Below are positions 32,319-48,912 of a DNA stretch of 64,000 nt, piece by piece (positions within the stretch are counted from its first letter, which is position 1; the number at the start of each line of letters is the position of its first letter). A program made the translations under genes and the position numbers. The DNA comes from a virus. Its lineage: Duplodnaviria > Heunggongvirae > Uroviricota > Caudoviricetes. The stretch covers positions 2,668 through 66,667 of the IMG/VR virus record IMGVR_UViG_3300010883_000008, one strand, 5' to 3'. A model generated the notes under the pieces. The model did not search any database and had not been told where the DNA came from. It worked only from the letters and a program-made list of their open reading frames with translations.

Positions 32319-34255
32319 TATCCCACCTTAGTTTTAGTTAACTTGATCTCCGTCAATTGGGCAGTTATGTCAAATACTGGCATCAGAGCTACAGTGTTAC
32401 TCACCTCATCTGGAGTGAAAGTTAAAGGACTAATTCCTGACGCGTGTACGCCCGAATCTCGAATCTCTAAGTTCACATCCCCGTTAAGGTAGACGTTCTC
32501 AATCTCGATGGTGTAAGTATCCCCTATAGTTAGAGATAACTCTTGTGTGGCCTCAGTACTACCAAGCAAGGTCAATCCGTCCCCGGGGTTAGCCCTAGAA
32601 CCTAACGGGATCGTCCAAGGGACCGACTCAGTGGATTTAGGTACAGGATCTCGCAAGAGATTCGTAGGCGACGTGAACGTAGTCGAACCTATGTCCTCCA
32701 TCGAGTGAACGATTAGAGACATCTTAGCTTTTGGCCCCGGACTATAGTTGACTTTGATGTCCGTCAGCAGACCTGTGATCACGTCACCCTCAGGAGTGGT
32801 AAATGTAATCTTCTGACCCACATCCAAGCAAGTTACATAAGCACTCTCAACATCCCAGGCCTTACGGGCCATTTTCCATTCCTGAAAAGCTCGCACAGCA
32901 ACGTTGTAGGCAATCTCCCGATCAGGGATGTAAGTGTTCTCAATCTCCTCAGGAAGTATGCCCATCTCCGCTTGTAGATCCGGGTCATTAACGATAACCG
33001 CAAGTTGGTATTCAACCTTCTCCATTGCCGAAGCCGAAGGTGAACCTCCACCTTTACCGCCGCCACCTTGGCCCCCCGGACCACCTCCGGCATGCCCGGC
33101 CCCTCGACCGACACCCGCACCCATCTGACGCATGACAGCTTTGATCTGTTCAACGTCCTCTTTACCATGGGCGGCTTGGTGTTTCTCACCCAAGTTGTGG
33201 GCGTTCGCCAACTCAGGGTCTTGGGGGTTATCCAGAGCTTTGGCCGATACAGTTACTTCGTAGTCACCCTTCTGATAATGTGCCGAGTCATCATTGGGGT
33301 CGCCGTTAGTCATCCTTACCCCAGTCTCCCCCGAATTACCGTACATCAGTTCTTCGGTGTAGTCGGCGGGACCTGCATACTCACCGGCCCCTGTGATAAC
33401 AACGTCCAAGGCGTTCACCCTATCGTCGTTGATCTCCTTAAGCAGAATAGCGATCACCTTACGAGGTAAAGCATTGCCGATACAATGCTTCATTTTGGCC
33501 TTCTTCCCCTTCTTCTTAGTGTTCTTGGGGTTACTTTGACCACCTTGGGATTGTTGCTCTTTCTTCCCCCCAAGTTTGTCCTTCCATTCCCAGCAGCCCC
33601 GGACTTGGTATCGAGTAGGGCCTGATTGAATATCACGCTTCCGATTAGCAGACAGGACCGCCTCAGGGGGAAGAACCACGTCCACAGCAGAGTTATGGTC
33701 CTTCCAATCCTGAGTAACTAGGATACCGTTGCGATTGATGAAGAGATCCTGGCAAGCCGCCTGGGCAATCTTCATCATTTCTTGCATCATGTTCGTGCCG
33801 TTAGCGGGACCACATACTGTCTTAGTTGTGGGGGCAAACGCAGTCAAAGCCGGACTCAAGCCCCCCATCTCATGAGCAATGAGTTCCAGGGCATCCTTAG
33901 CGTTAGCCAAAGGCCCAGTAATGACAGGCTTCTTAGCTAGTCGAGACGCATACGAGTTGATGGAGAGTTGGACTTCATCATTCGAGAGTTCATCCTTCTC
34001 ATTGAAGTTCACAACCAGTCCGAAGACCCAACTGATCACCCCGTTAAAGCAGGACTCCACAATACCTTGGGATTCAAGGACCGAAGCGTCCAACTTGACC
34101 TGAAAAGGTTGCCACAAGAAGTTCTCGGGTTCCCACAGCCCATCCTCATTGGTGAGAACTACCGAAGCACTGTAGGACGACCGCATTGAAACGGTGACGT
34201 TCCAACTTACTAAGTTGTTAACCAGAGTCGAGGGGTAGGGTCCGTTACTAGCCAT
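32318..34255 (-). CDS. large Gly-rich protein, probable virion/structural component
   Basis: 645 aa. Gly run GAGHAGGGPGGQGGGGKGGG and Lys patch KNTKKKGKKAKMKH. No enzymatic motif recognised. Confidence 0.45.
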   Translation of the reverse strand: MASNGPYPSTLVNNLVSWNVTVSMRSSYSASVVLTNEDGLWEPENFLWQPFQVKLDASVLESQGIVESCFNGVISWVFGLVVNFNEKDELSNDEVQLSINSYASRLAKKPVITGPLANAKDALELIAHEMGGLSPALTAFAPTTKTVCGPANGTNMMQEMMKIAQAACQDLFINRNGILVTQDWKDHNSAVDVVLPPEAVLSANRKRDIQSGPTRYQVRGCWEWKDKLGGKKEQQSQGGQSNPKNTKKKGKKAKMKHCIGNALPRKVIAILLKEINDDRVNALDVVITGAGEYAGPADYTEELMYGNSGETGVRMTNGDPNDDSAHYQKGDYEVTVSAKALDNPQDPELANAHNLGEKHQAAHGKEDVEQIKAVMRQMGAGVGRGAGHAGGGPGGQGGGGKGGGSPSASAMEKVEYQLAVIVNDPDLQAEMGILPEEIENTYIPDREIAYNVAVRAFQEWKMARKAWDVESAYVTCLDVGQKITFTTPEGDVITGLLTDIKVNYSPGPKAKMSLIVHSMEDIGSTTFTSPTNLLRDPVPKSTESVPWTIPLGSRANPGDGLTLLGSTEATQELSLTIGDTYTIEIENVYLNGDVNLEIRDSGVHASGISPLTFTPDEVSNTVALMPVFDITAQLTEIKLTKTKVG

Positions 34256-36026
34256 CAGTATCTAATATCCCTTGAGGTATGTGTGAGGCGTCATGGCCTA
34301 GCTGCCAAACTTCGTGCAGCATCCCGCCATGTATTCGCTCTCGTATCAGTTCTTCAAGGTCATGCCTTCGAGTATGGGTCTGATTCACCAAAGTGGTGAA
34401 GTCTTCCGCAGATTGTACTGGGATGTTCCAATCGCCTGAGGGCTCGTTCCACAACAAGATCCACTTGTACTCCCCGAGACGAGCTTGAAATTCATCTACG
34501 AAAGATTGCCCCGTACCCGCAGCATCCGCCTCAGCATAGATCAAGTCTCGGACCCCAGTTAGAATCAGTATATCAGCTTTGGGCCAAGTATCAAGCAAGT
34601 CTTGTTCCCGTAGGTTCAATTTTGCGAGCATCCCCGCCTTTTCGATAGCTTTGGCGTTGGGTTCCAGCCCCGTGATGTCTAACCCATGTTCCGAGCAAGC
34701 CTTAACGAGTTCCCCCGAGAAGCTCCCCACCTCAAGGATTTTAGGGTCATCCTCCAATCGTTTCAACACCTCAGGAAGGATCTCCATGGATGCCTTAAAG
34801 TGCATCGCAGGTTTGTACCCCCATCGGGACTCTAGCCAACAGGTCTCCGGAGGATTAGCCGCACAGATTTCAGTGACCGCTTTCTCCCACAGATCCATAA
34901 CAGGGTCAATACTGAAAGTATCCGTCACGTGACGTTGAGCCTTTTCCGTAGCAGTCTTGATCCGTTCAGGGTCCTCAAAGAACCACTGGGTTGTGGCGAC
35001 CATCTGATTCACATCCGGCACCTGCCAAAGCGTTCCCAAACGTTCTTCTTTGAACGCAGGGTTGATTAGCATTGGACAATGCTCCGAGCCCATTAGCTCA
35101 GGCATCGTTGTGGTGTTGTTGAGAATCTGGAGTACTCCCAAGGCCGCAGCCTCAATCGTAGGCACCCCGAATCCTTCACCTTGTGAGGTAGTCAGACGAA
35201 CATCCGACATCTGCATCAGTTCCCCGACCTCCTCGTGTTCCAGTCCCCGACTCCAGTCGAATCCCGTAAAGGTCACATCTTCCCGAACGTCGTACATACG
35301 AGCTACTTTGGACAAATCGTACCCGTCCTGCCCACTGGGACCCTTTTGATGCATTATGGTGTGTGCAATCAAATGCACATCCTTATCCGGCCATGCTTTC
35401 TTTAATTGCCGGATGTAGTCGAAGGTCGCGTCCCACCGCTTGTGCCAAATGTTCCTGTCGCAGTTCAAGACTAAAAAGGTGTCGTCATGCAGAGGAACGT
35501 GGAGCTTCTTAGCCCATTTCCGCCGCAGGGCGTGCTTATCCACTTCAACATTGAGCTTGAACTTCTCAGGGTCCAGCATGTGAGGAATGACCCAATCCGA
35601 AGGGGCCTGTTTCTCCCACATAGTTTGAGCATATTCCGACAGATGAATTACCCGGTCTTTAGGCACCTCCAGAAAATAATCTCGACCATTCCAGGGGAGT
35701 TCGCTACCTTCCCACGGAAGCCAGAACAGTACAGGGATGTTTCTGGGGGCAAACTTTAGAGCCGACATGTCCAGGCATTGTTGAGTGTGATAGAAGACTA
35801 TGACACAGTCCGGTCGAATCTTCTCCAACTCACGGTCAATTACCGCGACCTTATCTAGTTCACGTATATGCCAACAGACAAGGTCATCTTCCTCGAAGGT
35901 GGGGGGGTTATTCGCCAGGATATAAACTTGATGGCCCCGGTCTCGGAATCCCCGAGCCAGCATACCCATCTGCATACCAAATCCTGAGGGTAAGTTAGGA
36001 CTTTCCCCGATCAGCACGATTCTCAT
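34248..36026 (-). CDS. bifunctional glycosyltransferase (GT4-like) plus class I SAM methyltransferase
   Basis: 592 aa. GT-B signature TSQGEGFGVPTIEAAALGV. C-terminal MTase motif I ILEVGSFSGELVKACSEHGLDITGLE. Confidence 0.65.
   Translation of the reverse strand: MRIVLIGESPNLPSGFGMQMGMLARGFRDRGHQVYILANNPPTFEEDDLVCWHIRELDKVAVIDRELEKIRPDCVIVFYHTQQCLDMSALKFAPRNIPVLFWLPWEGSELPWNGRDYFLEVPKDRVIHLSEYAQTMWEKQAPSDWVIPHMLDPEKFKLNVEVDKHALRRKWAKKLHVPLHDDTFLVLNCDRNIWHKRWDATFDYIRQLKKAWPDKDVHLIAHTIMHQKGPSGQDGYDLSKVARMYDVREDVTFTGFDWSRGLEHEEVGELMQMSDVRLTTSQGEGFGVPTIEAAALGVLQILNNTTTMPELMGSEHCPMLINPAFKEERLGTLWQVPDVNQMVATTQWFFEDPERIKTATEKAQRHVTDTFSIDPVMDLWEKAVTEICAANPPETCWLESRWGYKPAMHFKASMEILPEVLKRLEDDPKILEVGSFSGELVKACSEHGLDITGLEPNAKAIEKAGMLAKLNLREQDLLDTWPKADILILTGVRDLIYAEADAAGTGQSFVDEFQARLGEYKWILLWNEPSGDWNIPVQSAEDFTTLVNQTHTRRHDLEELIRERIHGGMLHEVWQLGHDASHIPQGILDTDG
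35363..35378. repeat. degenerate palindrome family copy: GTGCAATCAAATGCAC
   Basis: One half site is altered (ATGCAC). It lies inside the GT-MT gene. Confidence 0.5.
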
Positions 36027-36044
36027 CTACTCATACTCCAAAGG

Positions 36045-36704
36045 TCATGAAATTTTGCGTAAAAATCCATCCGGATTGTAAGTTATTATGTACTTTTCCC
36101 GAGATTTGTCTATTTTGAAATGGTCATCTTCCAAAAGAAATTTGTCAATGCCCCCAAGAGGCCCTCCTCGGGACTTCGGCTTCCCCTTAATAAAGGAGGT
36201 AGCCCCATCTTCTACAATAAAGTAGCACCCTTCAGTCACCAAAGGGGACCACCGAACTAAATCGTCATACACGCCTTGTATGGAGTGATCCGCGTCTTGA
36301 ATGACCATAACTCGATCAGTAGGACGTATCCACTGTAGCACCCTAGAAATAGCCGCCTGATCTGTAGTGTTACCCACAACATGACGAACGTTGGGGTGCT
36401 TAATAGCACACGCTCGATGATCAACTCCGATAACCAGCCCCATAGGATGCTTCGCTTGCATAACGTCGGCTAGGTACATAGTTGACCCTCCGCGATACGT
36501 ACCCAACTCAATAATGATTGACGGGTTAGTCTCGTGAATGATCTCTTGATACACCTGCAAATCTAGGGGACTCTTGATCATTTCGACCCCCCTCCAATGC
36601 ATCTTGGACTTGTGGCGTTTACTACCGTTTACAGGGCACCCCAAAACGTGTTGTTGATGCCACAGTAACCACTCATCCAAATTCATATTCTCGTAAAACG
36701 TCAC
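36045..36704 (-). CDS. TylF/macrocin-type sugar O-methyltransferase (class I SAM MTase)
   Basis: 219 aa. IIELGTYRGGSTMYLADV resembles the TylF family motif (IVETGVYRGGS). Lower G+C towards the 3' end. Confidence 0.6.
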   Translation of the reverse strand: MTFYENMNLDEWLLWHQQHVLGCPVNGSKRHKSKMHWRGVEMIKSPLDLQVYQEIIHETNPSIIIELGTYRGGSTMYLADVMQAKHPMGLVIGVDHRACAIKHPNVRHVVGNTTDQAAISRVLQWIRPTDRVMVIQDADHSIQGVYDDLVRWSPLVTEGCYFIVEDGATSFIKGKPKSRGGPLGGIDKFLLEDDHFKIDKSREKYIITYNPDGFLRKIS

Positions 36705-37471
36705 GGAGTTCTCCTAGGTTTTGGAACTTGCACAGTAGATAGCTCTTTGGGAAATTTCGCAAAGTAATCAGTGTCGGGGGGCAACATACCTTCGTCCGAC
36801 AGCATCTCACGATGAACATCCGAAAACGGAGGGAAGCCTCGCAGATGATGCATGTACGAGTAGAATCTTTGGGAGTGGTGATCCTGACCCCCATACGAGA
36901 GTTGATGAACTACCTTAGCATTGCTCGTAGGCTTACCTCGATGGAGTTGCCTCATATCGAATGCAATAATATCTCCGGGGTTAGCCCTCAAAGTAACTAC
37001 CTTCCCAGGTTGTACCAACTTGGGATTTAGGTCCTTGTAATACGAGCCTGGGATAATCTGTAGAGGTTCGTTGGTAGCCTCAAAATACATGATGACTTTG
37101 AGACACCGGTACTCGACCTCGGGGTTCCAATCTCGGCCTCTACCGAAAACCTTGTTAGAACAGTCTCGATGCCAGTTACTCCGAAACTTTTCAATTTGCG
37201 GGCGGATGTTGTGAATGCTCCAAACTTTAGGCCCAATGCATTGGTGAACCACATCTAAAATCTCAGAACGTACACTAAGCCTATCCAACGCGGACTCAGC
37301 CCCGAAGTGGATCTTAAGGGCGGCCAATTCACGAATGCGGGCACCTAAGTAGAGGGCTTCTTCCTTGGGAATAACTCCCGGAAACAACTCAAAATGTTGG
37401 GCCTTATACGTCATTTTTCTTCCACACAGAGCCTTCCGGATGGTGGCACCCGTATTGCTCGGTCTCCTCAA
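36701..37471 (-). CDS. phytanoyl-CoA dioxygenase (PhyH) family 2OG-Fe(II) oxygenase
   Basis: 256 aa. NWHRDCS (HxD), distal MRQLHRGKPTSN His, IIAFD strand. Confidence 0.6.
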   Translation of the reverse strand: MRRPSNTGATIRKALCGRKMTYKAQHFELFPGVIPKEEALYLGARIRELAALKIHFGAESALDRLSVRSEILDVVHQCIGPKVWSIHNIRPQIEKFRSNWHRDCSNKVFGRGRDWNPEVEYRCLKVIMYFEATNEPLQIIPGSYYKDLNPKLVQPGKVVTLRANPGDIIAFDMRQLHRGKPTSNAKVVHQLSYGGQDHHSQRFYSYMHHLRGFPPFSDVHREMLSDEGMLPPDTDYFAKFPKELSTVQVPKPRRTP

Positions 37472-37766
37472 ATCTGGCTAGGTTTATGAACTTCCGCTCG
37501 GCACTTACGTTACATTTGCAGATTCCACAATGAGCCTCAATGCCTTTCCCTTTCGAGTAGTAGCATTTAGCACACAGCCGGACTCGGGTCTCGAACCGTT
37601 CCCGGGTGACCCCTTTGCCAAAGGCCAGAGCCATGGCTACGGATAGGATCTTCCCGAAAACTGATTCGTTAAACCATCGTCCCACAGGGGCAGCCCAACC
37701 TTTATCGTTCAAACACGAAGCTCTCGATATCGTGATCGCCCGGAAAAATGTCCATATTGACTTCAC
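37404..37766 (-). CDS. small Cys-rich protein (weak)
   Basis: 120 aa. CAKCYYSKGKGIEAHCGICKCN...GCHH. It overlaps the PhyH gene by 68 nt. Confidence 0.3.
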   Translation of the reverse strand: MKSIWTFFRAITISRASCLNDKGWAAPVGRWFNESVFGKILSVAMALAFGKGVTRERFETRVRLCAKCYYSKGKGIEAHCGICKCNVSAERKFINLARFEETEQYGCHHPEGSVWKKNDV

Positions 37767-39078
37767 CGAATTTCATCCTCTCCCAGTATCCCGTATTCAT
37801 ATGGATGCCATGCATACCTATGTATCGGGAGCGGTTAACTATAGGAGTCAAACGACCCCAACCCGCTTGGTAGAAGCCTACCATTGTAGCGGCATCCTGT
37901 CCGGTTGGAGGTTGTCCAAAATACTTGAGTCGTGCCCGGGTGGTGGGGGCTCCCTCAGGCAGTAAGCGGTGACCCAGAACTTTCGGAGGGTCCTTCATAC
38001 TACGTCGGAACCAGTCCACGATAGACCGGTGGGGTCTCTTATTATAATCGCCCCCGAGGAACAGGTCTTGGAATGAGAACATGAACTTGTTCATCGAGTT
38101 CCAAGACTTCTTCGACATCATGTAAGCCCACCAATTGTCATAAGTGGTGCGTACTTTATGGCGATTTTTCGTCTTCCATTCGGTGGGTTCTTTGCATTTG
38201 ATCCACCCTTGAACCGCCCCGCAGTTGTCATAGTTAGCCTCGCCCCAAGTCATGAGGTTACGGCAATACTGCATGTAGTTCGGAGCTACGACCAAGTCGT
38301 CCTCGAAGAACCACCCATAGTCGAAGCCTAACTCGTCAAAGATCTGACGACGGGCGTCAATGATATTACGCCCACACCCGAGGTTGCGATCTCGCTGAAT
38401 AACATAGAGCTTGGGGAAGAGTTTTTGAGCCACGTTAATCTGAGCGTCAGTTACCCGTTGATCCTCGTACTTGTCGAGAAACAGGAACCAAGGCAATGTC
38501 TGGGATTCGGGGTTTTGTGCAATTGATTGCACAACCTCCGTGAAGTAGTCCGTACGGTTCCACCCTAGAATCACCCCGGCTTCCGACTTACCTACTTCTT
38601 GTTTGGGCAGATCGGACAGTTGGATTTCTTGTGCGAGCGACCACCTTTCCTCTTTCGACCAGTCTTTTTGGCGGGGGAGGGGGTCAAGATAGCGGAAATC
38701 GGCTGGAGCCGATTTGGATCGAATGCTGCGAAAATAGGCTGACGGGTCAGCCATTTCCTCCCACTGTTTGTGCCCATCCAGGGGATAAGGTCGTAGCATG
38801 ATAGTGCTTCGAGTTTTGCGGTCCCGGCCCTTCCAGACCCCGTCCTTCTGAATGGTTAGGATGACGATGGGAACTCGGTCAGCCCCCATCAGCCGCATTA
38901 TAAAGACAGCCCGTCCCGCGTCCTCCGTAATCGACCAGTGAGCAATCTCGTGGTCGTCAATGGTGCCTCCTTCTTTAAGGACAACATCCCTAACATCTCC
39001 GGTCCCCGCCACGAATTGAAATTTCTCGACTTCGTGTACTGCTGTAGTTAGTGCAGAGATGTAATCTACAATCGCCAT
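37702..39078 (-). CDS. glycosyltransferase family 2-like (GT-A fold)
   Basis: 458 aa. RDRNLGCGRNIIDARRQIFDELGFDYGWFFEDDLVV resembles the GT2 xRNxG..ARN.G......DDD core. Confidence 0.55.
   Translation of the reverse strand: MAIVDYISALTTAVHEVEKFQFVAGTGDVRDVVLKEGGTIDDHEIAHWSITEDAGRAVFIMRLMGADRVPIVILTIQKDGVWKGRDRKTRSTIMLRPYPLDGHKQWEEMADPSAYFRSIRSKSAPADFRYLDPLPRQKDWSKEERWSLAQEIQLSDLPKQEVGKSEAGVILGWNRTDYFTEVVQSIAQNPESQTLPWFLFLDKYEDQRVTDAQINVAQKLFPKLYVIQRDRNLGCGRNIIDARRQIFDELGFDYGWFFEDDLVVAPNYMQYCRNLMTWGEANYDNCGAVQGWIKCKEPTEWKTKNRHKVRTTYDNWWAYMMSKKSWNSMNKFMFSFQDLFLGGDYNKRPHRSIVDWFRRSMKDPPKVLGHRLLPEGAPTTRARLKYFGQPPTGQDAATMVGFYQAGWGRLTPIVNRSRYIGMHGIHMNTGYWERMKFGEVNMDIFPGDHDIESFVFER
38517..38532. repeat. 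palindrome family copy: GTGCAATTGATTGCAC
   Basis: 16-bp inverted repeat inside the GT2 gene. Confidence 0.85.
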
Positions 39079-39126
39079 GTTTATTTACTCCGTAAGTAGG
39101 TTCACAAGGTCAATATACCATAGTAT

Positions 39127-39552
39127 CTAAGGGAGGGCTATGAACCCCTCCTCGGGTTCCACATCCTGCCAAAGGCCCATCCATCGGGCGTGTTCTTTTT
39201 GGCCTCTAGGTTTCCCCAGTCTAGCCTGTAGTCGTTTCAAGTACAGATCAGTTAGTTCTAGCCCTCCAAAACGTTTTACCTGACGATCCCAAGGGCCTAT
39301 CCAAAAGTCCCGGTCTGATCTGCGGAGGTTCAAGTAGTCTATGACCACCGTCTCTTGTCCCGAGTCAAACAGGCACTCCACAAACAGTCGAGCAGTTGCC
39401 AACACCATAGGCTCCGCCGTAGGTATCTTACCCGCAGTATTCGTCAGCCTTTTCCGTAGGCTATCCATGCAGACAACCACGTGCCCTGAATTTCGGGACC
39501 ACGTGGTCTTGCCTGTATGAGGGTATCCCATCGTGAGGATCAGCTTAAGCAT
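39127..39552 (-). CDS. P-loop kinase (polynucleotide/nucleotide kinase-like)
   Basis: 141 aa. Walker A MGYPHTGKTTW and Walker B VVIDYLN. Confidence 0.5.
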   Translation of the reverse strand: MLKLILTMGYPHTGKTTWSRNSGHVVVCMDSLRKRLTNTAGKIPTAEPMVLATARLFVECLFDSGQETVVIDYLNLRRSDRDFWIGPWDRQVKRFGGLELTDLYLKRLQARLGKPRGQKEHARWMGLWQDVEPEEGFIALP

Positions 39553-42482
39553 TAGGGAGGGGTAGGTCCTCCTGCGACGTTGCAGACTACCGTACCGATG
39601 GGGTCTGATCCGTTAACGCCTTGCCAGTTGGATGCGTTGTCCGGGGACACTATCCCATAAGGCATTTCATCCGACTCATAGAGGACAGTACTGTTTTCCA
39701 AGATCTGCCATCTGATCCCCGTGAGGACCACTGTAAAGGTGGGGTCGTCATCTCCAGTATATATGCCTCCAGATTCTACGTATTCTTGACTAGTCCCCGA
39801 TTCCCCGAAGCTACCAACAAAGATGGTGGCACATAAGGCTTCTGCGGCTTGAGCAACTGCATAGCAGTCTACGTTACAAGCACACGGGCCTAAGTCTACT
39901 TCCGCATCCCAAGTGGTTGCGGCACCCGCAGTAATAGAGATCAAATCTCCGCAGGCATTTTTACCTACCGTCATGGTCTGCCCGGCTAAAGTGATCGTTA
40001 GACCGCAATAGTCCATAGCAGCGGTGAGTCCGGTGACTGCGAAGAAGCTAGTGTTGCTGTCCTCAACCATATCGGTAGCCAACCCACAGGGGCCTTGTGT
40101 GGTCAACCCGCACCCAGCTAAGTCCCCCGGAGCTACAGCCAATCCGCAAGCTCCGTCAGTCGTTAAACCGCAGCCTGCCAGAGCCGTGTTATCCACATGC
40201 AAAGTGTCCCCTACGGCAATCAAACCACATCCGGGCTCCGGAGTGATGTTGTATATCACCTGTAGCCCAATGTTCTGAGTGATGTAATTGCTCGTCGTGT
40301 AGCACGTGATATGCTGATGATAGTGCTGGTGCTGATGAATGTGACTATGCCCATGGTAATGCTCATGAGTGTGGTAGTGAGCATGGCTATGAGAATAGTT
40401 CTGAGTGAGATCTACGTTCGTAGTGTAATTCAGGTTCGTAGTACTGTAACAAGTCTTATGGTAATGAGCATGAAAGTGGTTGCTGATTTCCTGCGTCGTG
40501 TTGTAGTTAGTTGTTGAACTCGTATAGCAAGTAATGTGCTGGTGGTAATGCTGGTGGTTGTGCGTGTGGTTATTTACATGGTAATGGCTGTGCGTGTGGT
40601 AATGAGCGTGATGATGCTCATACGACAGGTTGATGTCGATGTTATTAGTGACGTAACTTGTACCGGTTACGTAGCAGTGCAGCTTACATCCATCCCCGAC
40701 TAAATTCATCCCCGCCAAGTCTGAGGCATTGACCGAGATTGAATCTCCCGAGTACAGACCACAGCCTACGCTAACGGATAGCTTACACCCGTAGTCTGAG
40801 ACAAGTCCGTCCCCCGCCAAGTCTTCCCCGACGACAGAGACATCGGCACCCACGTAAATACCACAGCCTCCGACTACATCCAAAGTGCAATCATACCCCG
40901 CCGTAAGTCCCTCGCCCGCGAGTGCCGCGTTATCAACCTCAAGAGCCCCGCCGTAGGTCTTAAGGCCACAACCTGTATTGATGTACAACTGACACCCGTC
41001 GTAACCTCCCCCCACCGAGAGCCCGTCACCGGCTAAGGCTTGACCGTCAACTCCGATAGTGCAATCCCCGCTGACTTTCAGCCCACAACCTGCCAGCGTG
41101 TAGGCATCCACTTCAAGCTGGTTGCCATACAGTTGAAGACCACAGCCAAAGTCTACGTAAAGGCCGCACTGATCCGACCGTAATCCGGGTCCCGCAAGAG
41201 CCTTGGTATCAATGTTGAGTTCCCCACCTTCACAGGTTAGGCAGTCTCCATAGTTGATATACTGACAATCCCAGGGGATAGGTAGAGGAATTCTCGCTTC
41301 AAATCCCACCCGAGTAACCGTCTCACCTATCTTCATCGAGGGCATAGTTAAATTAGTAGAACACTTATCTTCCGTCAATTCGGCCTCAGATTTACGGGTG
41401 AATCCAAAGGACTGGTTCTTTTGAGATTGACTAACCGTCTTGACCTTAATGACCGGCCCAAATGCGAAGAACTTGTCCCCGTAAGACGAGATCCCCGTCC
41501 CACTAGCAAAGGTGCCCCTCCAGGCGTCTTCCACCGTCATGAAGTCCGATTGATCAAGAACTTCGGTACGAGCGTAAGGGATCGAAGTTTGCGTACTGTC
41601 AGACTTAACGTATCCCCAAGGTTTGTACTGAGCATGTCCGAAATCACAGTCGACTTCGACTTCCTTTTCTTTACAACACGTAAAGAATTCGCCGGACTCA
41701 ATGTGGAAAAACGTCAGACACAGGCATACTGTGAAGTCCTGACTGAAATTACAGTTTGTGGATACCCCAATGGCTTTCTTAGTAGCGTCAAAGGGTTTCA
41801 TCTTGACAGTAGGTTTTAACTGAAATACGTCGTCTTCTGGGTTTTGTTTTAGTTTCCATTCAACCTTGAACAACGCCACTACAGGTACATCGTCTTCCGT
41901 CTTACATTTCCACGACCACAACCCCGCAAAGAGCGAAGTCTCACAGCATAGCATCGTGTCAGGACCATTGATCTTTATGGCAACGTCAAACTCGTCGCAC
42001 ATGTTGTGGAGTTGAATGACTTTCGCGGGGTCGGCTTGTCCCGATTTGCCACCCTTACCCGTCTGTTTTTTAGGGCACTTGTATTTGACCGTTCGAGCCT
42101 CAGACGCATCCGAGACACACCCCGCCTCGTCGTAAGCCATTACTCGCCAATGGAGATCATCCCCGTTCTCGATGTCATCGATGATCTTCATCTCATAGGA
42201 AGTAGCCGTAGTGATTACGGCCTTAAGAGTAGGTCCTTGAAACGATGAATTTCGAGACCACTGCAAGACATACTTAGTAGCTCCCGACACCGCATCCCAA
42301 GAGAGCGTGATCCCTGAGCCACCCCCATCGGCTACCGCGTAGTTATTCGGGCAATGTTCTGACTCGTGTTCCGGGTAGTCAAGGATGGGGGTCTCAAGCG
42401 TACAGTCACGCATCCAATCCACTGCGGGTTGCAGTGGAAAAGTGTAGATATCTTGGACGAGGAAATCGGTAGTGTTATACAT
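39552..42482 (-). CDS. tail fibre / receptor-binding protein with FN3-like, Cys-Gly repeat and His/Tyr-rich repeat regions
   Basis: 976 aa. FN3-like SWDAVSGATKYVLQWSRNS. Repeated LAGxGL..GCGL units. Three tandem His-rich units (HAHYHTHSHYHVNNHTHNHQHYHQHITCYT). Confidence 0.6.
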   Translation of the reverse strand: MYNTTDFLVQDIYTFPLQPAVDWMRDCTLETPILDYPEHESEHCPNNYAVADGGGSGITLSWDAVSGATKYVLQWSRNSSFQGPTLKAVITTATSYEMKIIDDIENGDDLHWRVMAYDEAGCVSDASEARTVKYKCPKKQTGKGGKSGQADPAKVIQLHNMCDEFDVAIKINGPDTMLCCETSLFAGLWSWKCKTEDDVPVVALFKVEWKLKQNPEDDVFQLKPTVKMKPFDATKKAIGVSTNCNFSQDFTVCLCLTFFHIESGEFFTCCKEKEVEVDCDFGHAQYKPWGYVKSDSTQTSIPYARTEVLDQSDFMTVEDAWRGTFASGTGISSYGDKFFAFGPVIKVKTVSQSQKNQSFGFTRKSEAELTEDKCSTNLTMPSMKIGETVTRVGFEARIPLPIPWDCQYINYGDCLTCEGGELNIDTKALAGPGLRSDQCGLYVDFGCGLQLYGNQLEVDAYTLAGCGLKVSGDCTIGVDGQALAGDGLSVGGGYDGCQLYINTGCGLKTYGGALEVDNAALAGEGLTAGYDCTLDVVGGCGIYVGADVSVVGEDLAGDGLVSDYGCKLSVSVGCGLYSGDSISVNASDLAGMNLVGDGCKLHCYVTGTSYVTNNIDINLSYEHHHAHYHTHSHYHVNNHTHNHQHYHQHITCYTSSTTNYNTTQEISNHFHAHYHKTCYSTTNLNYTTNVDLTQNYSHSHAHYHTHEHYHGHSHIHQHQHYHQHITCYTTSNYITQNIGLQVIYNITPEPGCGLIAVGDTLHVDNTALAGCGLTTDGACGLAVAPGDLAGCGLTTQGPCGLATDMVEDSNTSFFAVTGLTAAMDYCGLTITLAGQTMTVGKNACGDLISITAGAATTWDAEVDLGPCACNVDCYAVAQAAEALCATIFVGSFGESGTSQEYVESGGIYTGDDDPTFTVVLTGIRWQILENSTVLYESDEMPYGIVSPDNASNWQGVNGSDPIGTVVCNVAGGPTPP
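40270..40700. repeat. tandem coding repeats (about 3 units) encoding His/Tyr-rich HxHxH segments
   Basis: Repetitive DNA with units such as atggtaatg / gtgctggtg. Composition is visibly AT-richer than the surrounding gene. Confidence 0.6.
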
Positions 42483-42488
42483 AAATGC

Positions 42489-42872
42489 TTAACATGTTGG
42501 TGCAATTGATTGCACAACCCTCATTACCTGAAACTGACCGCCGAAGGTAAATAGCTTGGAGCGTACCTGAGGTTTATCCAGACTGGTGAAGTACACGTCG
42601 TACTCGTCCCCCCAGTATCCCACAAACCGGTATAGGGGGGAAGGGTCAGCTACGTAGAAATCGTGGAGCGTCTGGAATTCCGTAGGCCACGCACTTTCCA
42701 GCGAGAAAGGAATAGTTCCCTCCCCATGGATAATCTCGATAGCAGCAGATTGTACCACAACTGCATTGGCAGTTCTAGTAGTTGATCTACGCTTCGTAGG
42801 AACGTAAGGCTGGTAAGAGAAGTGGATTGGAAGATCCACTCCCTCAAACGTAGCTATGTTAGTAGTCGCCAT
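42489..42872 (-). CDS. tail protein (distal tail/assembly), by position
   Basis: 127 aa between the tape measure gene and the fibre gene. Confidence 0.4.
   Translation of the reverse strand: MATTNIATFEGVDLPIHFSYQPYVPTKRRSTTRTANAVVVQSAAIEIIHGEGTIPFSLESAWPTEFQTLHDFYVADPSPLYRFVGYWGDEYDVYFTSLDKPQVRSKLFTFGGQFQVMRVVQSIAPTC
42500..42515. repeat. palindrome family copy: GTGCAATTGATTGCAC
   Basis: Lies 18 nt upstream of the fibre ATG, overlapping the last codons of the upstream gene. Confidence 0.85.
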
Positions 42873-42874
42873 GA

Positions 42875-45800
42875 CTAAACCCCTGTCCCGTTATTAAATG
42901 CTTCCCCGATACCCTCACCCACAACCCGTGTCACGTCGTCAATATCTACGTTGTTATTCACGTCCATGTTGACCTGTCGGTTGTCGTTGAAGTCTCCCCC
43001 GATTCCGGGTGCAGGATCAATTACGGCTGCGGCATTCGCAAATCCATTCACATCTGGACCTCCGGGCATTGCGGCATCGAGTCGAGGACCTCCCCCAAAT
43101 CCATCCGCCGCCATACCTACAAGTAAGGTTGCTTGATCCAACATATCTTGTATAGCATTCAGTACTTGAGGAATGCCCAAGCGAATACCTGCGGCAAGTC
43201 GCATCATCCAAGTCTGCCCGGCAATTTCAAAGTCCGCACCGATAGCCTCAACCAGAACCTTAAACTTGGTTCTAGCCGCAGCCATATTGCGTTCCATCTC
43301 ACCGACAGCTTGTCCCGCCCCGTTGGCCGCAAGTCCCAATTCCCGAGCAGCTTCGCCCTCAAGGCCAGCTTCACCCGCACGTTTAGCAGCCACACCCTTC
43401 ATCAGGCGTAGTCGAGCCTCTTCGATTTTGATTTCTTGTCGCAATCGAACGTCATCAGGTTTTCCTTCGTTCAGGTTCTTAAAAGCCCGTGCCCGTAGTC
43501 GAGCGACCTTTTCTTCCTGAATGATGGTGTCCCGAGCCGCAGCAAAGGCTCTACGTTCCTGGGTGTCCCGCACGAATGCGATAGCTTGGTAAAGCATCAG
43601 CATATCTTGTAGGGATCGAACCTGACCCGTAAGTTGTTTGGTCACCGACTCTTCGATCTTAACTTCACGTTCAGCCGCACCAATCACCTTACCTTTGGCC
43701 CCGAAAACTTCGTCCTCAGCCTTACGCATAATGTCTTGAGCCCGGCGACGATCAATAGCCCGCTTCTCACCCACGATACGTTGAGCATGAGCCAATTCTT
43801 TTTTACCCGAAGCCTTAGCCGCAGCTAGGATTTCTTGGTTCTTCTCCTCTTCAACTTTAAGGAGTTTCTGAGCTTCCAGTTGAGCCCCTCGGAGCTTATC
43901 CCCCCGGAGCTTAGCGTCGTCGATACGAGCATCTCGAATCAACTCTTCCCGCTTTTTGTGTTCTTCCTTAATCAAGGCGTTCAATTCATTGCGTTGAGCA
44001 ATCTCAATTTGCCTCTTAAGGTTTTCCTCGTCCTTAAGTTGAGACAGTCGACGATTGACCGCCTCAAGACGCTCTTTAGCTTTCGCCGCAGATTCCTCAA
44101 GAGGTTTGATTGCATTGAGGAATTCAATCTCTGTTTTGAGAGCCGCAATACGTCGCTCCGACATGGCAATCTGTTGCCCCCGAACGCCCTTTATCTCAGC
44201 AAGTTCCCCCGCCAATCCGTCAAGCTCTTTCTTTTGAAGTTCCTCTCGTACTTTCGCCATCTCTTTGTCAGTATCCGCCAACGTACGTTGAGCCTCCGCC
44301 CGGGCATCCATCATTTTGGCTAGTTTGAGATCCATTTGCCACGTGCGTTGAAGAGTCTCCTGATTTTCATCCATCACTTTTGTGTGGAGTTCAAGAGCCT
44401 TGGTAGCCATGTCAACTTCCGCACGGTTAGTACGTCGAATCGCCTCCAGTTCCCGGACGCTTTGACCTAGAGCCTGCGTTTTGACAATCTCTTGCTCAGT
44501 GAGGGCCAAATTGTGTTCAGCTTCCGTCAAACCTGCGGCCAATTCAGCCCCGACATCAGCATGGGCCTTCTTTAGATCCGCCAACTCACGAAGTTGTTGA
44601 GCCCCTAGAGTCTTACCAAGGTTCGCCAAGTCCAGAAGTTTTTGTGCTGACGCGATTCGTTCGCCGTTGGCCTTAGCTCGTAACTTCTGATCTGCAACAT
44701 AGGCAGTATTCGACGCGTTCTGGGCAGCTTGAGCCGCAGCCAAAGCATCCGCTGCATCCTGAATAGCTTGGGTATCTTCCTCCGCAGCCTCTTTGATCAA
44801 TCCGAACCACTTCAGGGCTCCAACACCAAACTTCATGATTCCTAATGTCACCGCGTTTAACCCGACCAGAAACCATGTAACTGCGGTTATTAACTTGGTG
44901 ATCAGCATTAGTACAAACATTAAGACCTGCCCGATTGCCCCCCCTAACTGCCCAAACATAGGTCCAGTTTCCGACAGCGAGTCGAACATCTGGAGAATCG
45001 TACCAATCAACCATTCAAGAGCAACTTGCAACTCAGCAAAAGCAGGTTTTAAGAAGGCGTCGTATCCCGACTTAATTCCTGCCCATGTTCCCATGATGAC
45101 AGCTTTGATCGCGTTAAACACGTTCATTGCTGTAGCTTTGATTCGCTCCCACATTTTCACTACGGCATTGAACACGGGGAGGGCTATCAAAGCAATGACC
45201 GCAATGACTGCCAACCAAGGTCCCATAAACGCACTTACGATAGTACCACCTACCGACAGGAGAACCGAACCTAAAGTTCCCAGCATCGTAACTAAGGGAC
45301 CTAAGATCTGTAAAAACATCCCTGTAGGCAGAGCGATAGCACCTAAAGCCACCGAAGCTGCGGTGATTGCTCCCCCAATCTTAAGTATAGAGTTGACCAT
45401 AGGTTGGTTAGCTTCAACCCAAGCCTTGAAGTCTACTATGTTGAGACGTACTTCTTGTCCCAATTTGGCTAATGCCGCAGCAAAGGAATCGGTCTCCTTA
45501 ATATCCCCGATCAGGGTGATGATCAAGTCCTGCAAAGCTGACTTGAGTTTCAGGAGGGTCCCGGTAAGGTTGTCCTCCATAGTTTCCATCATCAATTGAG
45601 CGGCTAACGCAGCCGCCTCGTTCTTCGCGGTAAACTCAGCGACCTTCTCGGAACCTTGGTTCATTAAGGCAAGGAAGGATCGACCGCCTCGAACACCGAA
45701 GATCTGCATAGCATCGCCAGCAGACAAACTGACAGCTTCGAGCTTTTGCAGAATGTCCACAAGGGAGTTAGCCTTGGGATCAACGTCAGCTAAGGTCAGA

Positions 45801-46570
45801 CCGTAGCGACCTAATACTTTAGTGGTTCGAGTCGTTCCCCGAGCCAAGCTATCCATAATACGAGACAGCGACGTACCGGCTGTAGTGCCTTTGATACCCG
45901 CGTTCGCAAGAACACCCAGCACCGCCGTAACTTCTTCCAGAGACGCACCCAAGGCCGCTGCGGTTGGAGAGGCAAACGACAGGGCAAAGCCTAACTGACC
46001 CACTTGGGTGTTAGCATTGGTCGCCGTAACTGCCAGAACGTCCACAACTCGGCCTAAGGACTGAGCTTCCAGACGGAAGGCTCGCATAACGTCCGCAGAG
46101 ATTTCTGCGGCTCGGGCGAGATCCATGGTGCCGATAGCTGCCAGCGACAGAGTAGCTGACAAACCCGCCGCAGCTTCCTTAGCTGAGAAACCGGCACGAA
46201 CGAGGAATGTAGAGGCTTGAGCCACCTGTACGGCAGTGAACCGAGTATCTTGGCCCAACTGACGTACGGTAGTCTGTAGATTTTTGAAGTCTTCCACGGA
46301 GTTACCCGCAGAGTCCGAGGCTTGTTCAACGATAGCCTGGACAGCGTCCATCTGACGTTCAAAGTCAGCCGCAACTTTGATAGCGGGAATGAACGCGATA
46401 CTTAGAGCAGCACCGATGCCGATAGCGGCTCGGGCAAACGTGGTCATTCGAGTACCGACTGAGGTAACAGCCATACCGAATCGTCTGACCACATTCTCTG
46501 CTGTGACCATGCCAACGACGAAAGATCGTACGTCTGCGACGATTCGGAGTATCGCTGTTCCTAGATTCAT
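42875..46570 (-). CDS. tail tape measure protein
   Basis: 1231 aa. N-terminal helical domain, multiple transmembrane helices and an extended coiled-coil region rich in A/E/K/L/R. Confidence 0.8.
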   Translation of the reverse strand: MNLGTAILRIVADVRSFVVGMVTAENVVRRFGMAVTSVGTRMTTFARAAIGIGAALSIAFIPAIKVAADFERQMDAVQAIVEQASDSAGNSVEDFKNLQTTVRQLGQDTRFTAVQVAQASTFLVRAGFSAKEAAAGLSATLSLAAIGTMDLARAAEISADVMRAFRLEAQSLGRVVDVLAVTATNANTQVGQLGFALSFASPTAAALGASLEEVTAVLGVLANAGIKGTTAGTSLSRIMDSLARGTTRTTKVLGRYGLTLADVDPKANSLVDILQKLEAVSLSAGDAMQIFGVRGGRSFLALMNQGSEKVAEFTAKNEAAALAAQLMMETMEDNLTGTLLKLKSALQDLIITLIGDIKETDSFAAALAKLGQEVRLNIVDFKAWVEANQPMVNSILKIGGAITAASVALGAIALPTGMFLQILGPLVTMLGTLGSVLLSVGGTIVSAFMGPWLAVIAVIALIALPVFNAVVKMWERIKATAMNVFNAIKAVIMGTWAGIKSGYDAFLKPAFAELQVALEWLIGTILQMFDSLSETGPMFGQLGGAIGQVLMFVLMLITKLITAVTWFLVGLNAVTLGIMKFGVGALKWFGLIKEAAEEDTQAIQDAADALAAAQAAQNASNTAYVADQKLRAKANGERIASAQKLLDLANLGKTLGAQQLRELADLKKAHADVGAELAAGLTEAEHNLALTEQEIVKTQALGQSVRELEAIRRTNRAEVDMATKALELHTKVMDENQETLQRTWQMDLKLAKMMDARAEAQRTLADTDKEMAKVREELQKKELDGLAGELAEIKGVRGQQIAMSERRIAALKTEIEFLNAIKPLEESAAKAKERLEAVNRRLSQLKDEENLKRQIEIAQRNELNALIKEEHKKREELIRDARIDDAKLRGDKLRGAQLEAQKLLKVEEEKNQEILAAAKASGKKELAHAQRIVGEKRAIDRRRAQDIMRKAEDEVFGAKGKVIGAAEREVKIEESVTKQLTGQVRSLQDMLMLYQAIAFVRDTQERRAFAAARDTIIQEEKVARLRARAFKNLNEGKPDDVRLRQEIKIEEARLRLMKGVAAKRAGEAGLEGEAARELGLAANGAGQAVGEMERNMAAARTKFKVLVEAIGADFEIAGQTWMMRLAAGIRLGIPQVLNAIQDMLDQATLLVGMAADGFGGGPRLDAAMPGGPDVNGFANAAAVIDPAPGIGGDFNDNRQVNMDVNNNVDIDDVTRVVGEGIGEAFNNGTGV

Positions 46571-48423: not shown

Positions 48424-48912
48424 TTAGCTGTCGACGATGGTGCCAAACGTACCGTTGGCTAGTTTCAAGACTTCAAATTCGACTTCAAAAGCCGTCTCTT
48501 CATCCCGCTGCATGTTGTACTCACGCGATCCCATAGCGATACACTTGGTGAACGTGAAAGTACGAGTACCACATCCGGGGGATTGACCCACTAGGATAAT
48601 GGCTAATTCTTCGACCCAGCAGGCATTGTTATACCCGATAGTCAAAGTCGATCCGCCACCCGTCAGGTTAGACGCGGGCTGCATAAAGGCTTGACGCATA
48701 CGTTCAAGCGTGACTTCCAATAGCGTAGTCTGTACAAAGACAGACTCGTCCGTACGAGCTTTTCGCACCGTACCGACTGCTTGATCAGCTTTGATTGCGA
48801 GGAACTCGGGTTCGTAACGAACCACGACGCCGCCTTTTGTAAAGCCTACGTCCGAGCCACCAATCGAAACATCAGCAGCACCTACGATGATGTTGTCGGC
48901 ATTTCCAGCCAT
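48424..48912 (-). CDS. major tail (tube) protein, putative
   Basis: 162 aa. Composition is beta-rich with Gly/Thr/Val. Position is upstream of the chaperone and tape measure genes. Confidence 0.5.
   Translation of the reverse strand: MAGNADNIIVGAADVSIGGSDVGFTKGGVVVRYEPEFLAIKADQAVGTVRKARTDESVFVQTTLLEVTLERMRQAFMQPASNLTGGGSTLTIGYNNACWVEELAIILVGQSPGCGTRTFTFTKCIAMGSREYNMQRDEETAFEVEFEVLKLANGTFGTIVDS

What the first reader, a model, noticed from the sequence alone, without database searches (positions are those of the whole stretch)
39552..42482. Tail fibre with tandem His/Tyr-rich HxHxH repeats and Cys-Gly repeats
Residues encoded around 40270-40700 form three tandem units such as HHHAHYHTHSHYHVNNHTHNHQHYHQHITCYT. 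The DNA there is repetitive and AT-richer than the rest of the gene. Alternating His pairs like these are classic divalent-metal ligands (Ni/Zn/Cu). Upstream are about 10 repeats of LAGxGL..GCGL and an FN3-like domain. A metal-binding module in a receptor-binding protein is unusual. It may mediate metal-dependent adsorption or bind a metal-containing receptor. The repeat count is likely hypervariable.
Basis: partly seen in the sequence, partly recalled or inferred. Interest (0 to 1): 0.65.

Follow-up and report, generated by a model that had tools for sequence, protein, structure and literature searches.

The report
Phage tail fibre with dense histidine array
An uncultured phage's tail-tip fibre carries a unique insert in which histidine occupies every second position for up to 27 residues; it most likely forms a stack of buried metal-ion "histidine cages", a known fibre device that is far more densely packed here than in the fibres compared.

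Summary
ORF 39552-42482 (minus strand, 976 aa) lies after the tape-measure gene of a siphovirus-like genome. 32 of its 40 His lie in aa 623-724. 31 of them sit on one face of three related units holding 13, 4 and 14 His. There are 27 overlapping HxH against 1.6 expected by shuffling.

The AT-richness comes from amino-acid composition (GC3 0.595), not from foreign or slippery DNA. TRF finds no tandem repeat.

Flanking the insert are Cys/Gly shaft repeats (LAGxGL / GCGL) shared with hundreds of metagenomic fibres. None of the 153 relatives examined has more than two HxH. Some carry collagen triple helices or other rod modules in the shaft instead. The module alone has no detectable homologue. 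Its only other occurrence is a 99.96%-identical 2.5-kb metagenome contig.

HxH metal sites on the threefold axis of phage fibres and spikes are well known (T4 gp37, P2 gpV, R-pyocin fibre).

Best reading: an in-line, metal-stapled trimeric rod with up to 15 hexa-His cages. Trimer formation, metal binding and function are inferred, not shown. I rate it a new variant of a known kind, of moderate interest.

The parts
39552..42482 (-). Whole ORF, 976 aa: candidate tail-tip fibre / receptor-binding protein
   Evidence: ORF list. It lies 6 nt after the 127-aa ORF that follows the tape measure. The same gene order is seen in related loci L001 and L123. HMMER finds 691 relatives at E<1e-3.
42078..42395 (-). 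FN3-like beta-sandwich 1 (aa 30-135)
   Evidence: AF2 pLDDT 95-98. Foldseek matches tandem FN3 domains at E = 2e-6, and also phage J-type and minor tail proteins. Weak PHROG 2589 'tail protein' hit at aa 58-133.
41643..42005 (-). Second beta-sandwich (aa 160-280)
   Evidence: AF2 pLDDT about 90. Conserved in relatives over aa 7-290.
41223..41642 (-). Conserved but poorly modelled region (aa 281-420) linking the N-terminal domains to the shaft
   Evidence: pLDDT below 50. Aligned in P0008, P0012 and P0017 up to aa 411-445.
40632..41222 (-). Cys/Gly shaft repeats, block 1 (aa 421-617): alternating LxVDxxxLAGxGL and CxLxVxxGCGL half-units, with Cys pairs spaced C-x7-C
   Evidence: Motif positions. 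43-45% identity to the repeats of P0001 and P0002. Many HMMER hits map to aa 420-617.
40479..40622 (-). His unit 1 (aa 621-668): 13 His and 1 Asn on one face over 27 residues (plus His624 on the other face), then ITCYT and a T/S/N-rich linker
40392..40478 (-). His unit 2 (aa 669-697): short copy, HFHAHYH then KTCYS and a linker
40233..40391 (-). His unit 3 (aa 698-750): 14 His in perfect alternation (aa 698-724), then ITCYT and a linker
40071..40232 (-). Cys/Gly shaft repeats, block 2 (aa 751-804), in the same frame as block 1
   Evidence: AF2 pLDDT 70-85. Aligns with the relatives' repeats.
39819..40070 (-). Conserved fibre cap (aa 805-888): three long beta-strands and a helix; motif F.AVT...GC.L.L....KN.CG
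   Evidence: AF2 pLDDT 87-96 over most of aa 804-863. The motif is shared with P0006, P0013, P0139, P0052, P0110 and others. No PDB fold match.
39555..39818 (-). Orphan C-terminal region (aa 889-976); possible receptor-binding end
   Evidence: Its only match is the identical fragment P0005. pLDDT below 50.
42875..46570 (-). Tape measure protein (context)
   Evidence: PHROG 1533 at 2.8e-77.
42489..42872 (-). 127-aa ORF between the tape measure and the fibre (context, no family)
   Evidence: A 131-aa counterpart sits in L123.

Best explanation
The 976-aa protein is the tail-tip fibre of an uncultured siphovirus-like phage. It is modular. From the N-terminus it has two FN3-like sandwiches, a Cys/Gly-rich repeat shaft, a three-unit histidine insert, two more shaft repeats, a family-conserved cap and an orphan C-terminal region.

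In the insert, His occupies every second residue. Each unit is therefore a beta-strand with an all-His face. The other face is polar or aromatic (Y, Q, T, S, A), and there are no hydrophobic core residues.

In the homotrimer the three His faces would meet on the threefold axis. Each consecutive HxH pair from the three chains would then form an octahedral hexa-His cage around a buried metal ion. Fe is the likeliest by precedent, but Zn or Ni cannot be excluded. That gives up to 6 + 2 + 7 = 15 cages per trimer, about one every four residues (roughly 1.3 nm).

The result would be two thin rods of about 8-9 nm plus a short one, joined by T/S/N-rich linkers that each begin with a conserved T-C-Y. 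The ions would replace a hydrophobic core, set the chain register and stiffen the rod. The module is thus a structural spacer in line with the shaft, doing the job that collagen triple helices or other rod inserts do in relatives. Receptor binding would belong to the parts beyond it.

Shown: the sequence pattern, its statistics, its uniqueness, the modular context and the synteny. Inferred: trimer formation, the axial arrangement, the identity and number of metal ions, and the function.
For: - **Pattern.** Strict period 2: 27 HxH and 2 HH, against 8.2 and 8.3 expected from local shuffles. 31 His lie on one face, while the other face reads HAYTSYVNTNQYQ / SAYTEYGSIQQYQ.
- **Fibre identity.** The gene follows the tape measure, and the order is conserved in L001 and L123. 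The FN3 tandem resembles those of phage J-type and minor tail proteins.
- **Trimer.** Relatives that share the shaft repeats at 43-45% identity carry long collagen GXY tracts. Collagen tracts are obligate trimers (P0001 and P0002; P0119 and P0137).
- **Rod-slot logic.** Relatives hold other modules within or after the shaft: collagen, DPDGCLxC repeats and CDSIQTCIADN repeats. The insert here is flanked on both sides by in-frame shaft repeats.
- **Precedent.** HxH hexa-His cages with buried Fe occur in T4 gp37 (7 sites; I located 7 tip HxH at residues 883-998), P2 gpV, a phi92 spike protein and R-pyocin fibres. Their proposed roles are folding, chain register and stiffness. Destroying the cage unfolds the P2 apex domain.
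- **Selection.** Units 1 and 3 keep 75% amino-acid identity and every aligned His position except one (Asn637 against His712), although 13 of 27 identical-residue codons differ. This points to selection on the protein, not recent DNA duplication.
- **Real sequence.** It is reproduced in an independent contig.
Against: - No oligomeric or metal-aware structure prediction could be run.
- The AF2 monomer gives pLDDT 26-40 and no secondary structure for the module. That result is uninformative rather than supportive.
- There is no sequence similarity to any solved structure, including the gp37 tip.
- In T4 gp37 the tip HxH motifs are isolated, at least 9 residues apart, with small x residues (S, T, G). 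Cages every 4 residues with Tyr or Gln at x have no precedent among the literature and structures I consulted and could be sterically or electrostatically strained.
- The module has no homologues, so there is no conservation or covariation evidence.
- The equal length of units 1 and 3 would also fit an antiparallel hairpin.
Confidence: 0.5

Rival explanations
1. A gp37-like hairpin needle. Units 1 and 3 run antiparallel, giving six strands per trimer. Both His faces line the axis. The segment between them (aa 650-697, including unit 2) forms the distal receptor-binding tip. The C-terminal 225 residues fold back as a collar at the needle base. The metal cages still exist, but the module is then the business end of the fibre.
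For: - Units 1 and 3 have exactly the same length, 14 same-face positions each.
- The T4 gp37 needle is described in the literature as an antiparallel up-and-down structure with 7 Fe along it (topology from established knowledge of PDB 2XGF).
- In gp37 the HxH motifs lie on both sides of the tip segment, at 883-929 and 966-998.
Against: - After unit 3 the chain resumes the same shaft repeats as before the insert, then the family cap that terminates relatives' fibres. Axis-centred repeats are hard to place beside a needle that occupies the axis.
- Relatives with collagen at the corresponding place are necessarily in line.
- The equal length is explained simply by duplication.
Confidence: 0.15
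2. An exposed metal or ligand-binding adhesion module, which is the first reader's view and the 'Ferrojan horse' idea. His side chains are solvent-accessible. They bind free or receptor-held metal (for example at siderophore receptors) or anionic surface polymers in a pH- or metal-dependent way, and so contribute directly to adsorption.
For: - His-rich exposed loops do bind Zn or Ni in cellular proteins. The weak PDB hit PA4063 and its paper are examples.
- The Ferrojan or Trojan horse hypothesis is in the literature for HxH-bearing marine phage fibres.
- The AF2 monomer predicts no fixed structure for the module.
Against: - In all solved phage cases the HxH ions are buried on the axis and are not available to a receptor.
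- Strict alternation with avoidance of HH indicates a one-faced beta-strand rather than a chelating loop.
- The module sits in mid-shaft, with 225 residues including a conserved cap distal to it.
- No iron-uptake-related genes were found among the roughly 30 window ORFs scanned.
Confidence: 0.2
3. A flexible, metal-independent polar linker. It would be a low-complexity His/Tyr/Asn/Thr spacer, possibly glycosylated or acting as a pH-sensitive hinge, with no specific ion sites.
For: - The module is an orphan with low-complexity composition.
- pLDDT is below 40.
- Glycosyltransferase and methyltransferase genes follow the fibre gene here and in relatives.
- T/S/N-rich linkers are present.
Against: - Disordered linkers do not need a strict period-2 His pattern that is preserved between diverged copies.
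- A composition that is His on one face and Y/Q/T on the other is typical of beta structure.
Confidence: 0.1
4. An artefact: a mis-assembly or wrong reading frame through a simple repeat.
For: The composition shift and the mirror-image antisense ORF 40311-40517, which is Met/Val-rich.
Against: - One uninterrupted frame carries homologous repeats on both sides of the insert.
- There is no simple-sequence DNA.
- An independent contig is identical.
- GC3 is normal.
Confidence: 0.02

Closest known systems
T4 gp37 long-tail-fibre needle (PDB 2XGF) and other HxH 'histidine cage' sites: P2 gpV apex, a phi92 spike protein, R-pyocin fibre shaft and spike PA0616, T4 gp12
   Same: Both have HxH motifs in a phage fibre or spike protein. 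The expected arrangement is also the same: three chains each give two His to an octahedral, buried ion on the threefold axis, with a role in folding, register or stiffness.
   Different: - There is no sequence or detectable fold relationship.
- Known sites are single, or isolated as in gp37, which has 7 tip HxH spread over residues 883-998, at least 9 residues apart, with x = S/T/G.
- Here 14 His alternate without a break, twice, with x mostly Y or Q. That would give up to 15 cages in about 100 residues and a rod with essentially no other core.
- The module lies in mid-shaft, not at the tip or apex.
Unnamed metagenomic family of Cys-rich LAGxGL/GCGL-repeat tail fibres (e.g. P0004, P0006, P0007, P0009, P0001/P0002)
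   Same: They share the N-terminal FN3-like domains (35-45% identity over aa 7-411), the shaft repeats (43-48% identity), the C-terminal cap motif and the gene position after the tape measure.
   Different: None of the 153 relatives examined has more than 2 HxH. They carry collagen, other Cys repeats or nothing at the corresponding place.
Collagen-like rod modules in phage fibres (as in P0001, P0002, P0137)
   Same: Both are a thin trimeric rod in a Cys-flanked repeat shaft. In these relatives the rod follows the repeat block rather than interrupting it. I infer the same architectural role of spacer or register-setter.
   Different: The chemistry is entirely different. A GXY triple helix is held by backbone hydrogen bonds, whereas this would be a beta-strand bundle held by metal-imidazole bonds.
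Marine phage fibres proposed as iron ligands (Alteromonas phage R22Y gp12, 6 HxH; the Ferrojan/Trojan horse hypothesis)
   Same: Both are cases of multiple HxH in a fibre, with metal binding inferred from sequence or modelling only.
   Different: R22Y has six dispersed motifs over about 340 residues. Here there are 27 overlapping motifs in 102 residues. No evidence links either to siderophore receptors.

Membership tests
HxH histidine-cage metal site of trimeric phage fibres/spikes | HxH motif(s) in a tail fibre or spike polypeptide | tested here: met
   27 overlapping HxH in aa 623-724. Tail-tip gene position.
HxH histidine-cage metal site of trimeric phage fibres/spikes | Homotrimer with the motif on the threefold axis | not testable with these tools
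Trimer formation is inferred from collagen tracts in relatives that share the shaft repeats.
HxH histidine-cage metal site of trimeric phage fibres/spikes | Octahedral coordination of a buried Fe (or Zn) by six His | not testable with these tools
   Needs ICP-MS, X-ray fluorescence or a structure.
T4 gp37 needle domain (homology) | Sequence similarity to gp37 or other solved fibre tips | tested here: not met
   phmmer against PDB gave 0 hits for the whole protein at E<=10. For the module it gave only chance hits at E>1. The HxH spacing differs from gp37.
Phage tail fibre / tail-tip protein | Encoded directly downstream of the tape measure in the tail module | tested here: met
   Tape measure 42875-46570, 127-aa ORF, then this ORF. 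Same order in L001 and L123.
Phage tail fibre / tail-tip protein | Match to a curated tail-fibre family (Pfam or PHROG) | tested here: inconclusive
   Pfam gave none. PHROG 2589 'tail protein' matched at E = 0.0032, over the FN3-like part only. tblastn against 50,697 phage genomes gave no match.
Cys-rich LAGxGL/GCGL shaft-repeat fibre family (unnamed, metagenomic) | Alternating LAGxGL and CxLxVxxGCGL half-repeats, together with the conserved N-terminal domain and/or the cap | tested here: met
   P0004 at E = 1.5e-126 and 187 hits at E<1e-10. Pairwise 43-45% identity. Cap motif aligned.
FN3 domain | Seven-stranded beta-sandwich of FN3 topology | tested here: met
   AF2 pLDDT above 95 for aa 30-135. 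Foldseek matches tandem FN3 structures at E = 2e-6 to 1e-5. The Pfam FN3 model itself did not hit.
Hypervariable tandem-repeat (slippage-prone) locus | Near-identical head-to-tail DNA repeats | tested here: not met
   TRF found 0 arrays at score 30. The units are 68% identical at DNA level, and the longest exact repeat is 12 nt. The array is identical in the second assembly.
Collagen-like fibre module | GXY triplet repeats | tested here: not met
   No GXY runs are present in this protein (sequence). They are present in relatives P0001, P0002, P0119 and P0137.

The most novel reading that the evidence does not exclude
The module is a protein 'metal wire'. It would be a core-less triple-stranded rod whose interior consists only of stacked hexa-His cages, up to 15 transition-metal ions per fibre at about 1.3-nm spacing. 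This would make fibre assembly, and so infectivity, depend directly on metal (probably iron) supply. It would also give this phage a much higher metal quota per fibre than the T4 fibre tip. The architecture would be a fibre-building principle not seen in any solved structure I compared.
Probability: 0.35. Interest if true: 0.75.

Novelty: new variant of a known kind. Interest (0 to 1): 0.5.

Why it matters
If the array forms stacked histidine cages, it would be the densest metal-stapled fibre segment among those compared here. It would show that metal-imidazole coordination alone can serve as the core of a long trimeric rod.

That would allow a direct test of the long-untested idea that HxH cages set chain register and stiffness. 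Here nothing else is available to hold the rod together.

It would also give a clean model for the debated role of phage fibres as iron ligands: up to 15 ions per trimer against 7 in the T4 fibre tip. And it would offer a compact, genetically encoded scaffold for ordered metal arrays.

If instead the His are exposed, it would be the first fibre with a true metal-affinity adhesion module.

Tried and rejected
- **Pfam and PDB sequence searches** gave nothing for the whole protein or the module.
- **tblastn against 50,697 phage genomes** gave no match. The large terminase is at most 25% identical to any cultured phage, so there is no host clue. No tRNAs were found.
- **Word-indexed search of the module alone** against 5.8 billion proteins gave 0 hits at E<=10.
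- **Relatives in IMG/VR by protein** gave none. The exact protein is not in the gene-position index.
- **DNA pattern for HAHYHTHxHYH** found only the near-identical 2.5-kb contig in the JGI metagenome collection and nothing in IMG/VR.
- **Generic pattern of 7 alternating His codons in IMG/VR.** Nearly all hits were simple-sequence DNA or short ORFs. The only long ORFs were non-fibre: one giant-virus-labelled contig ORF, one HP-repeat ORF, a prohead protease and a ZrgA-like protein.
- **HYHxHxHYH pattern in 185,579 genomes.** This also stopped at 120 rows. Hits were (HY)n simple repeats and an unrelated Streptococcus HTH protein. These two scans are therefore not exhaustive.
- **AF2 monomer of aa 584-976** gave no information on the His module. 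Foldseek of that model against PDB gave nothing below E = 0.2.
- **Sample identifiers** 3300009786 and Ga0114999 appear in no held paper. The Bartual 2010 gp37 paper is not held.
- **Foreign-DNA origin of the AT-rich patch** is rejected because GC3 is normal.


Full report
**1. What is there**

The window is a siphovirus-like phage genome with all genes on the minus strand.
- Recognised genes include the large terminase (58994-60697), the portal (57056-58993), an Ig-like major tail protein (48424-48912) and a 1231-aa tape measure (42875-46570).
- Six bases after a 127-aa ORF that follows the tape measure comes the ORF in question, 39552-42482, 976 aa.
- Its stop overlaps the start of a 141-aa AAA_33 kinase-like gene. 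Glycosyltransferase and methyltransferase genes follow.
- The rest of the window encodes DNA polymerase A, helicases, RecA and a MoxR-type ATPase.
- The terminase is at most 25% identical to that of any cultured phage, so the host is unknown.

**2.

- 32 of the 40 His lie in aa 623-724. There are 27 overlapping HxH and only 2 HH.
- Shuffling the whole protein gives 1.6 HxH on average, with a maximum of 8 in 20,000 trials.
- Shuffling only aa 621-740 gives 8.2 HxH (maximum 17) and 8.3 HH. The signal is therefore a strict period-2 placement, not just His richness.
- Read by parity, one face of unit 1 is HHHHHHHNHHHHHH and one face of unit 3 is fourteen His in a row. The opposite faces read HAYTSYVNTNQYQ and SAYTEYGSIQQYQ.
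- The three units align. Units 1 and 3 share 27 of 36 residues, and unit 2 is a short copy with four His. Each ends with H-x-T-C-Y and a T/S/N/Y-rich linker.

The local drop in GC (0.435-0.455 against 0.54-0.60) lies in codon positions 1 and 2 (0.44 and 0.28). GC3 is 0.595, as high as anywhere in the gene. It therefore reflects His, Tyr, Asn and Thr codons, not foreign DNA.

The DNA is not a tandem repeat in any practical sense.
- TRF finds nothing.
- The two long units are 68% identical, and 13 of 27 conserved residues use different codons.
- The longest exact repeat is 12 nt.

An independent 2518-nt JGI contig (Ga0114999_10100665) matches window 38568-41085 with one mismatch and carries the identical array. 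This rules out an assembly or frame artefact. It also gives no sign of length variation.

**3. The rest of the protein and its relatives**

AF2 with a 39-sequence alignment models two beta-sandwiches, aa 30-135 at pLDDT above 95 and aa 160-280 at about 90. Foldseek matches them to tandem FN3 domains at E = 2e-6, and also to phage host-specificity-J and minor tail proteins.

Residues 421-617 and 751-804 are alternating half-repeats, LxVDxxxLAGxGL and CxLxVxxGCGL, with Cys pairs spaced C-x7-C.

An exhaustive HMMER search of 1.84 billion representatives found 691 relatives.
- Many share the N-terminal domains, for example P0008 at 44% identity over aa 7-411.
- Many share the shaft repeats, for example P0004 with 34 GCGL motifs.
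- Many share a cap motif (F.AVT...GC.L.L...KN.CG) that ends their fibres. AF2 models the cap confidently, at pLDDT 87-96.
- It has no PDB fold match.

Loci encoding two relatives show the same order: tape measure, small ORF, large fibre, then glycosyltransferase. This is a real but unnamed family of Cys-rich tail fibres. Its members contain 2.7-5.5% Cys, against about 1-2% in most other ORFs of this window.

**4. The His module is an orphan insert in a slot used for rods**

- None of the 150 best relatives, nor the three found earlier, has more than two HxH.
- Searching the module alone against 5.8 billion proteins gave no hit even at E = 10.
- A DNA pattern for HAHYHTHxHYH hit only the near-identical contig in the JGI metagenome collection and nothing in IMG/VR.
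- In the alignment with relatives the module has no counterpart.

Relatives carry other elongated modules within or after the shaft.
- P0001, P0002, P0119 and P0137 have collagen GXY tracts.
- P0101 has DPDGCLxC repeats, and P0099 has CDSIQTCIADN repeats.
- Collagen tracts are obligate trimers. The shared shaft is therefore trimeric and the slot accepts in-line trimeric rods. This is inference, but it rests directly on the sequences.

**5. Mechanism**

Established structural work shows that HxH motifs in trimeric phage fibres and spikes form an octahedral cage. Three chains contribute two His each, around a buried ion on the threefold axis.
- Examples are seven Fe in the T4 gp37 needle, one each in P2 gpV, a phi92 spike protein, the R-pyocin fibre shaft and spike, and Zn in the crystal structure of T4 gp12 (PMC6116203; PMC6957217; bioRxiv 10.1101/2023.02.25.529910). 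A His-X7-His variant occurs in phi11 Gp45 (PMC4901313).
- The proposed roles are folding reference points, chain register and stiffness.
- Alanine substitution of the gp37 His is lethal.
- Destroying the P2 cage unfolds the apex domain.

The pattern here is His on one face, polar or aromatic residues on the other, and no hydrophobic core positions. That is what one would expect if the cage were repeated back to back.

Pairing consecutive same-face His gives 6 cages in unit 1, where Asn637 breaks one pair, 2 in unit 2 and 7 in unit 3. That is up to 15 per trimer, one every four residues. For an extended strand this means about 1.3 nm between ions and about 8-9 nm for each long unit (my geometry, not computed).

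I therefore read the module as a metal-stapled rod in line with the shaft. The conserved Cys after each unit may add inter-chain staples.

For comparison, T4 gp37 has its seven tip motifs at residues 883, 915, 929, 966, 980, 989 and 998. They are never closer than nine residues and have S, T or G at x. The density here, with Tyr or Gln at x, has no precedent among the structures and literature I consulted. That is both the interest and the main uncertainty.

**6. Rivals**

- **gp37-like hairpin.** Units 1 and 3 would run antiparallel with the tip between them. This would explain their equal length. It is hard to reconcile with the shaft repeats and family cap that follow unit 3.
This is possible. 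It is disfavoured by the buried nature of all solved sites, by the beta-strand-type alternation and by the mid-shaft position.
- **Plain flexible linker.** This does not explain the preserved period-2 pattern.
- **Artefact.** This is excluded.

**7. What could not be shown**

Only monomer AF2 was available. It leaves the module unstructured at pLDDT 26-40, which neither supports nor refutes a fold that depends on a trimer and on metal.

No conservation evidence exists because the module has no homologues.

My broad DNA-pattern scans for alternating-His arrays were truncated at 120 rows and dominated by simple repeats. 'Unique' therefore means unique among relatives and among close sequence matches. 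It does not mean that no analogous array exists anywhere.

**8. Verdict**

Metal ligation is the best reading, but such sites are a known device of phage fibres. The likely role is structural rather than receptor-related, and hypervariability is unsupported.

This is a new and extreme variant of a known kind, of moderate interest.

Noticed in passing
window 34248-39078 (-); L001 13605-14843; L123 9550-11442: A cluster of glycosyltransferase and methyltransferase genes lies just downstream of the fibre gene, after the 141-aa AAA_33 ORF. It comprises GT1 plus a methyltransferase at 34248-36026, an RMNT_CmcI methyltransferase at 36045-36704, and a 458-aa ORF with no Pfam/PHROG family hit at 37702-39078 that looks GT2-like only by eye (EDD motif). 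Two related phage loci also have GT genes after the fibre. This may indicate glycosylation of virion proteins; the His module's linkers are T/S/N-rich.
   Followed up: partly
window 42489-42872 (-): Only a 127-aa ORF with no family hit separates the tape measure from the 976-aa protein. The large protein starts with FN3-like domains rather than a gp27-like hub. No recognisable distal-tail (Dit) or Tal protein was found in this tail module.
   Followed up: partly
proteins P0001, P0002, P0099, P0101, P0119, P0137 (relatives): The unnamed Cys-rich LAGxGL/GCGL fibre family has hundreds of metagenomic members and no Pfam model. Its members hold interchangeable rod inserts: collagen, DPDGCLxC repeats, CDSIQTCIADN repeats and S/T-rich tails. 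Repeat number varies widely, from 5 to 34 GCGL motifs.
   Followed up: partly
window 40311-40517 (+): This 68-aa Met/Val/Leu-rich antisense ORF is just the reverse complement of the His (CAY) codons, not a gene.
   Followed up: yes
window 39127-39552 (-): A 141-aa AAA_33 / polynucleotide-kinase-like ORF has its start overlapping the fibre gene's stop. It is also present in the independent contig L122. This is an odd neighbour for a structural gene.
   Followed up: no
L065 4639-6111 (+) (IMGVR_UViG_3300032053_000585): A 491-aa ORF with a prohead serine protease (S78) domain carries an acidic HxH-rich array (HTHPHAHEHDHAHEH...HSHEHNHTHAHEH). This is another viral protein with a long alternating-His tract, but not a fibre.
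   Followed up: partly
window 9349-10932, 30460-31650 and 31671-32318 (-): Three accessory genes are unusual for a siphovirus: a MoxR/CbbQ-type AAA ATPase, a 396-aa protein with a sigma-70 region 4 motif, and an SPFH/Band 7 protein.
   Followed up: no
window 39552-42482 (-), aa 439-799: The shaft repeats contain regularly spaced Cys pairs (C-x7-C: 439/447, 466/474, 497/505, 532/540, 566/574, 771/779, 791/799). A single conserved Cys follows each His unit (652, 678, 727). These may be disulfide staples or additional metal ligands.
   Followed up: no
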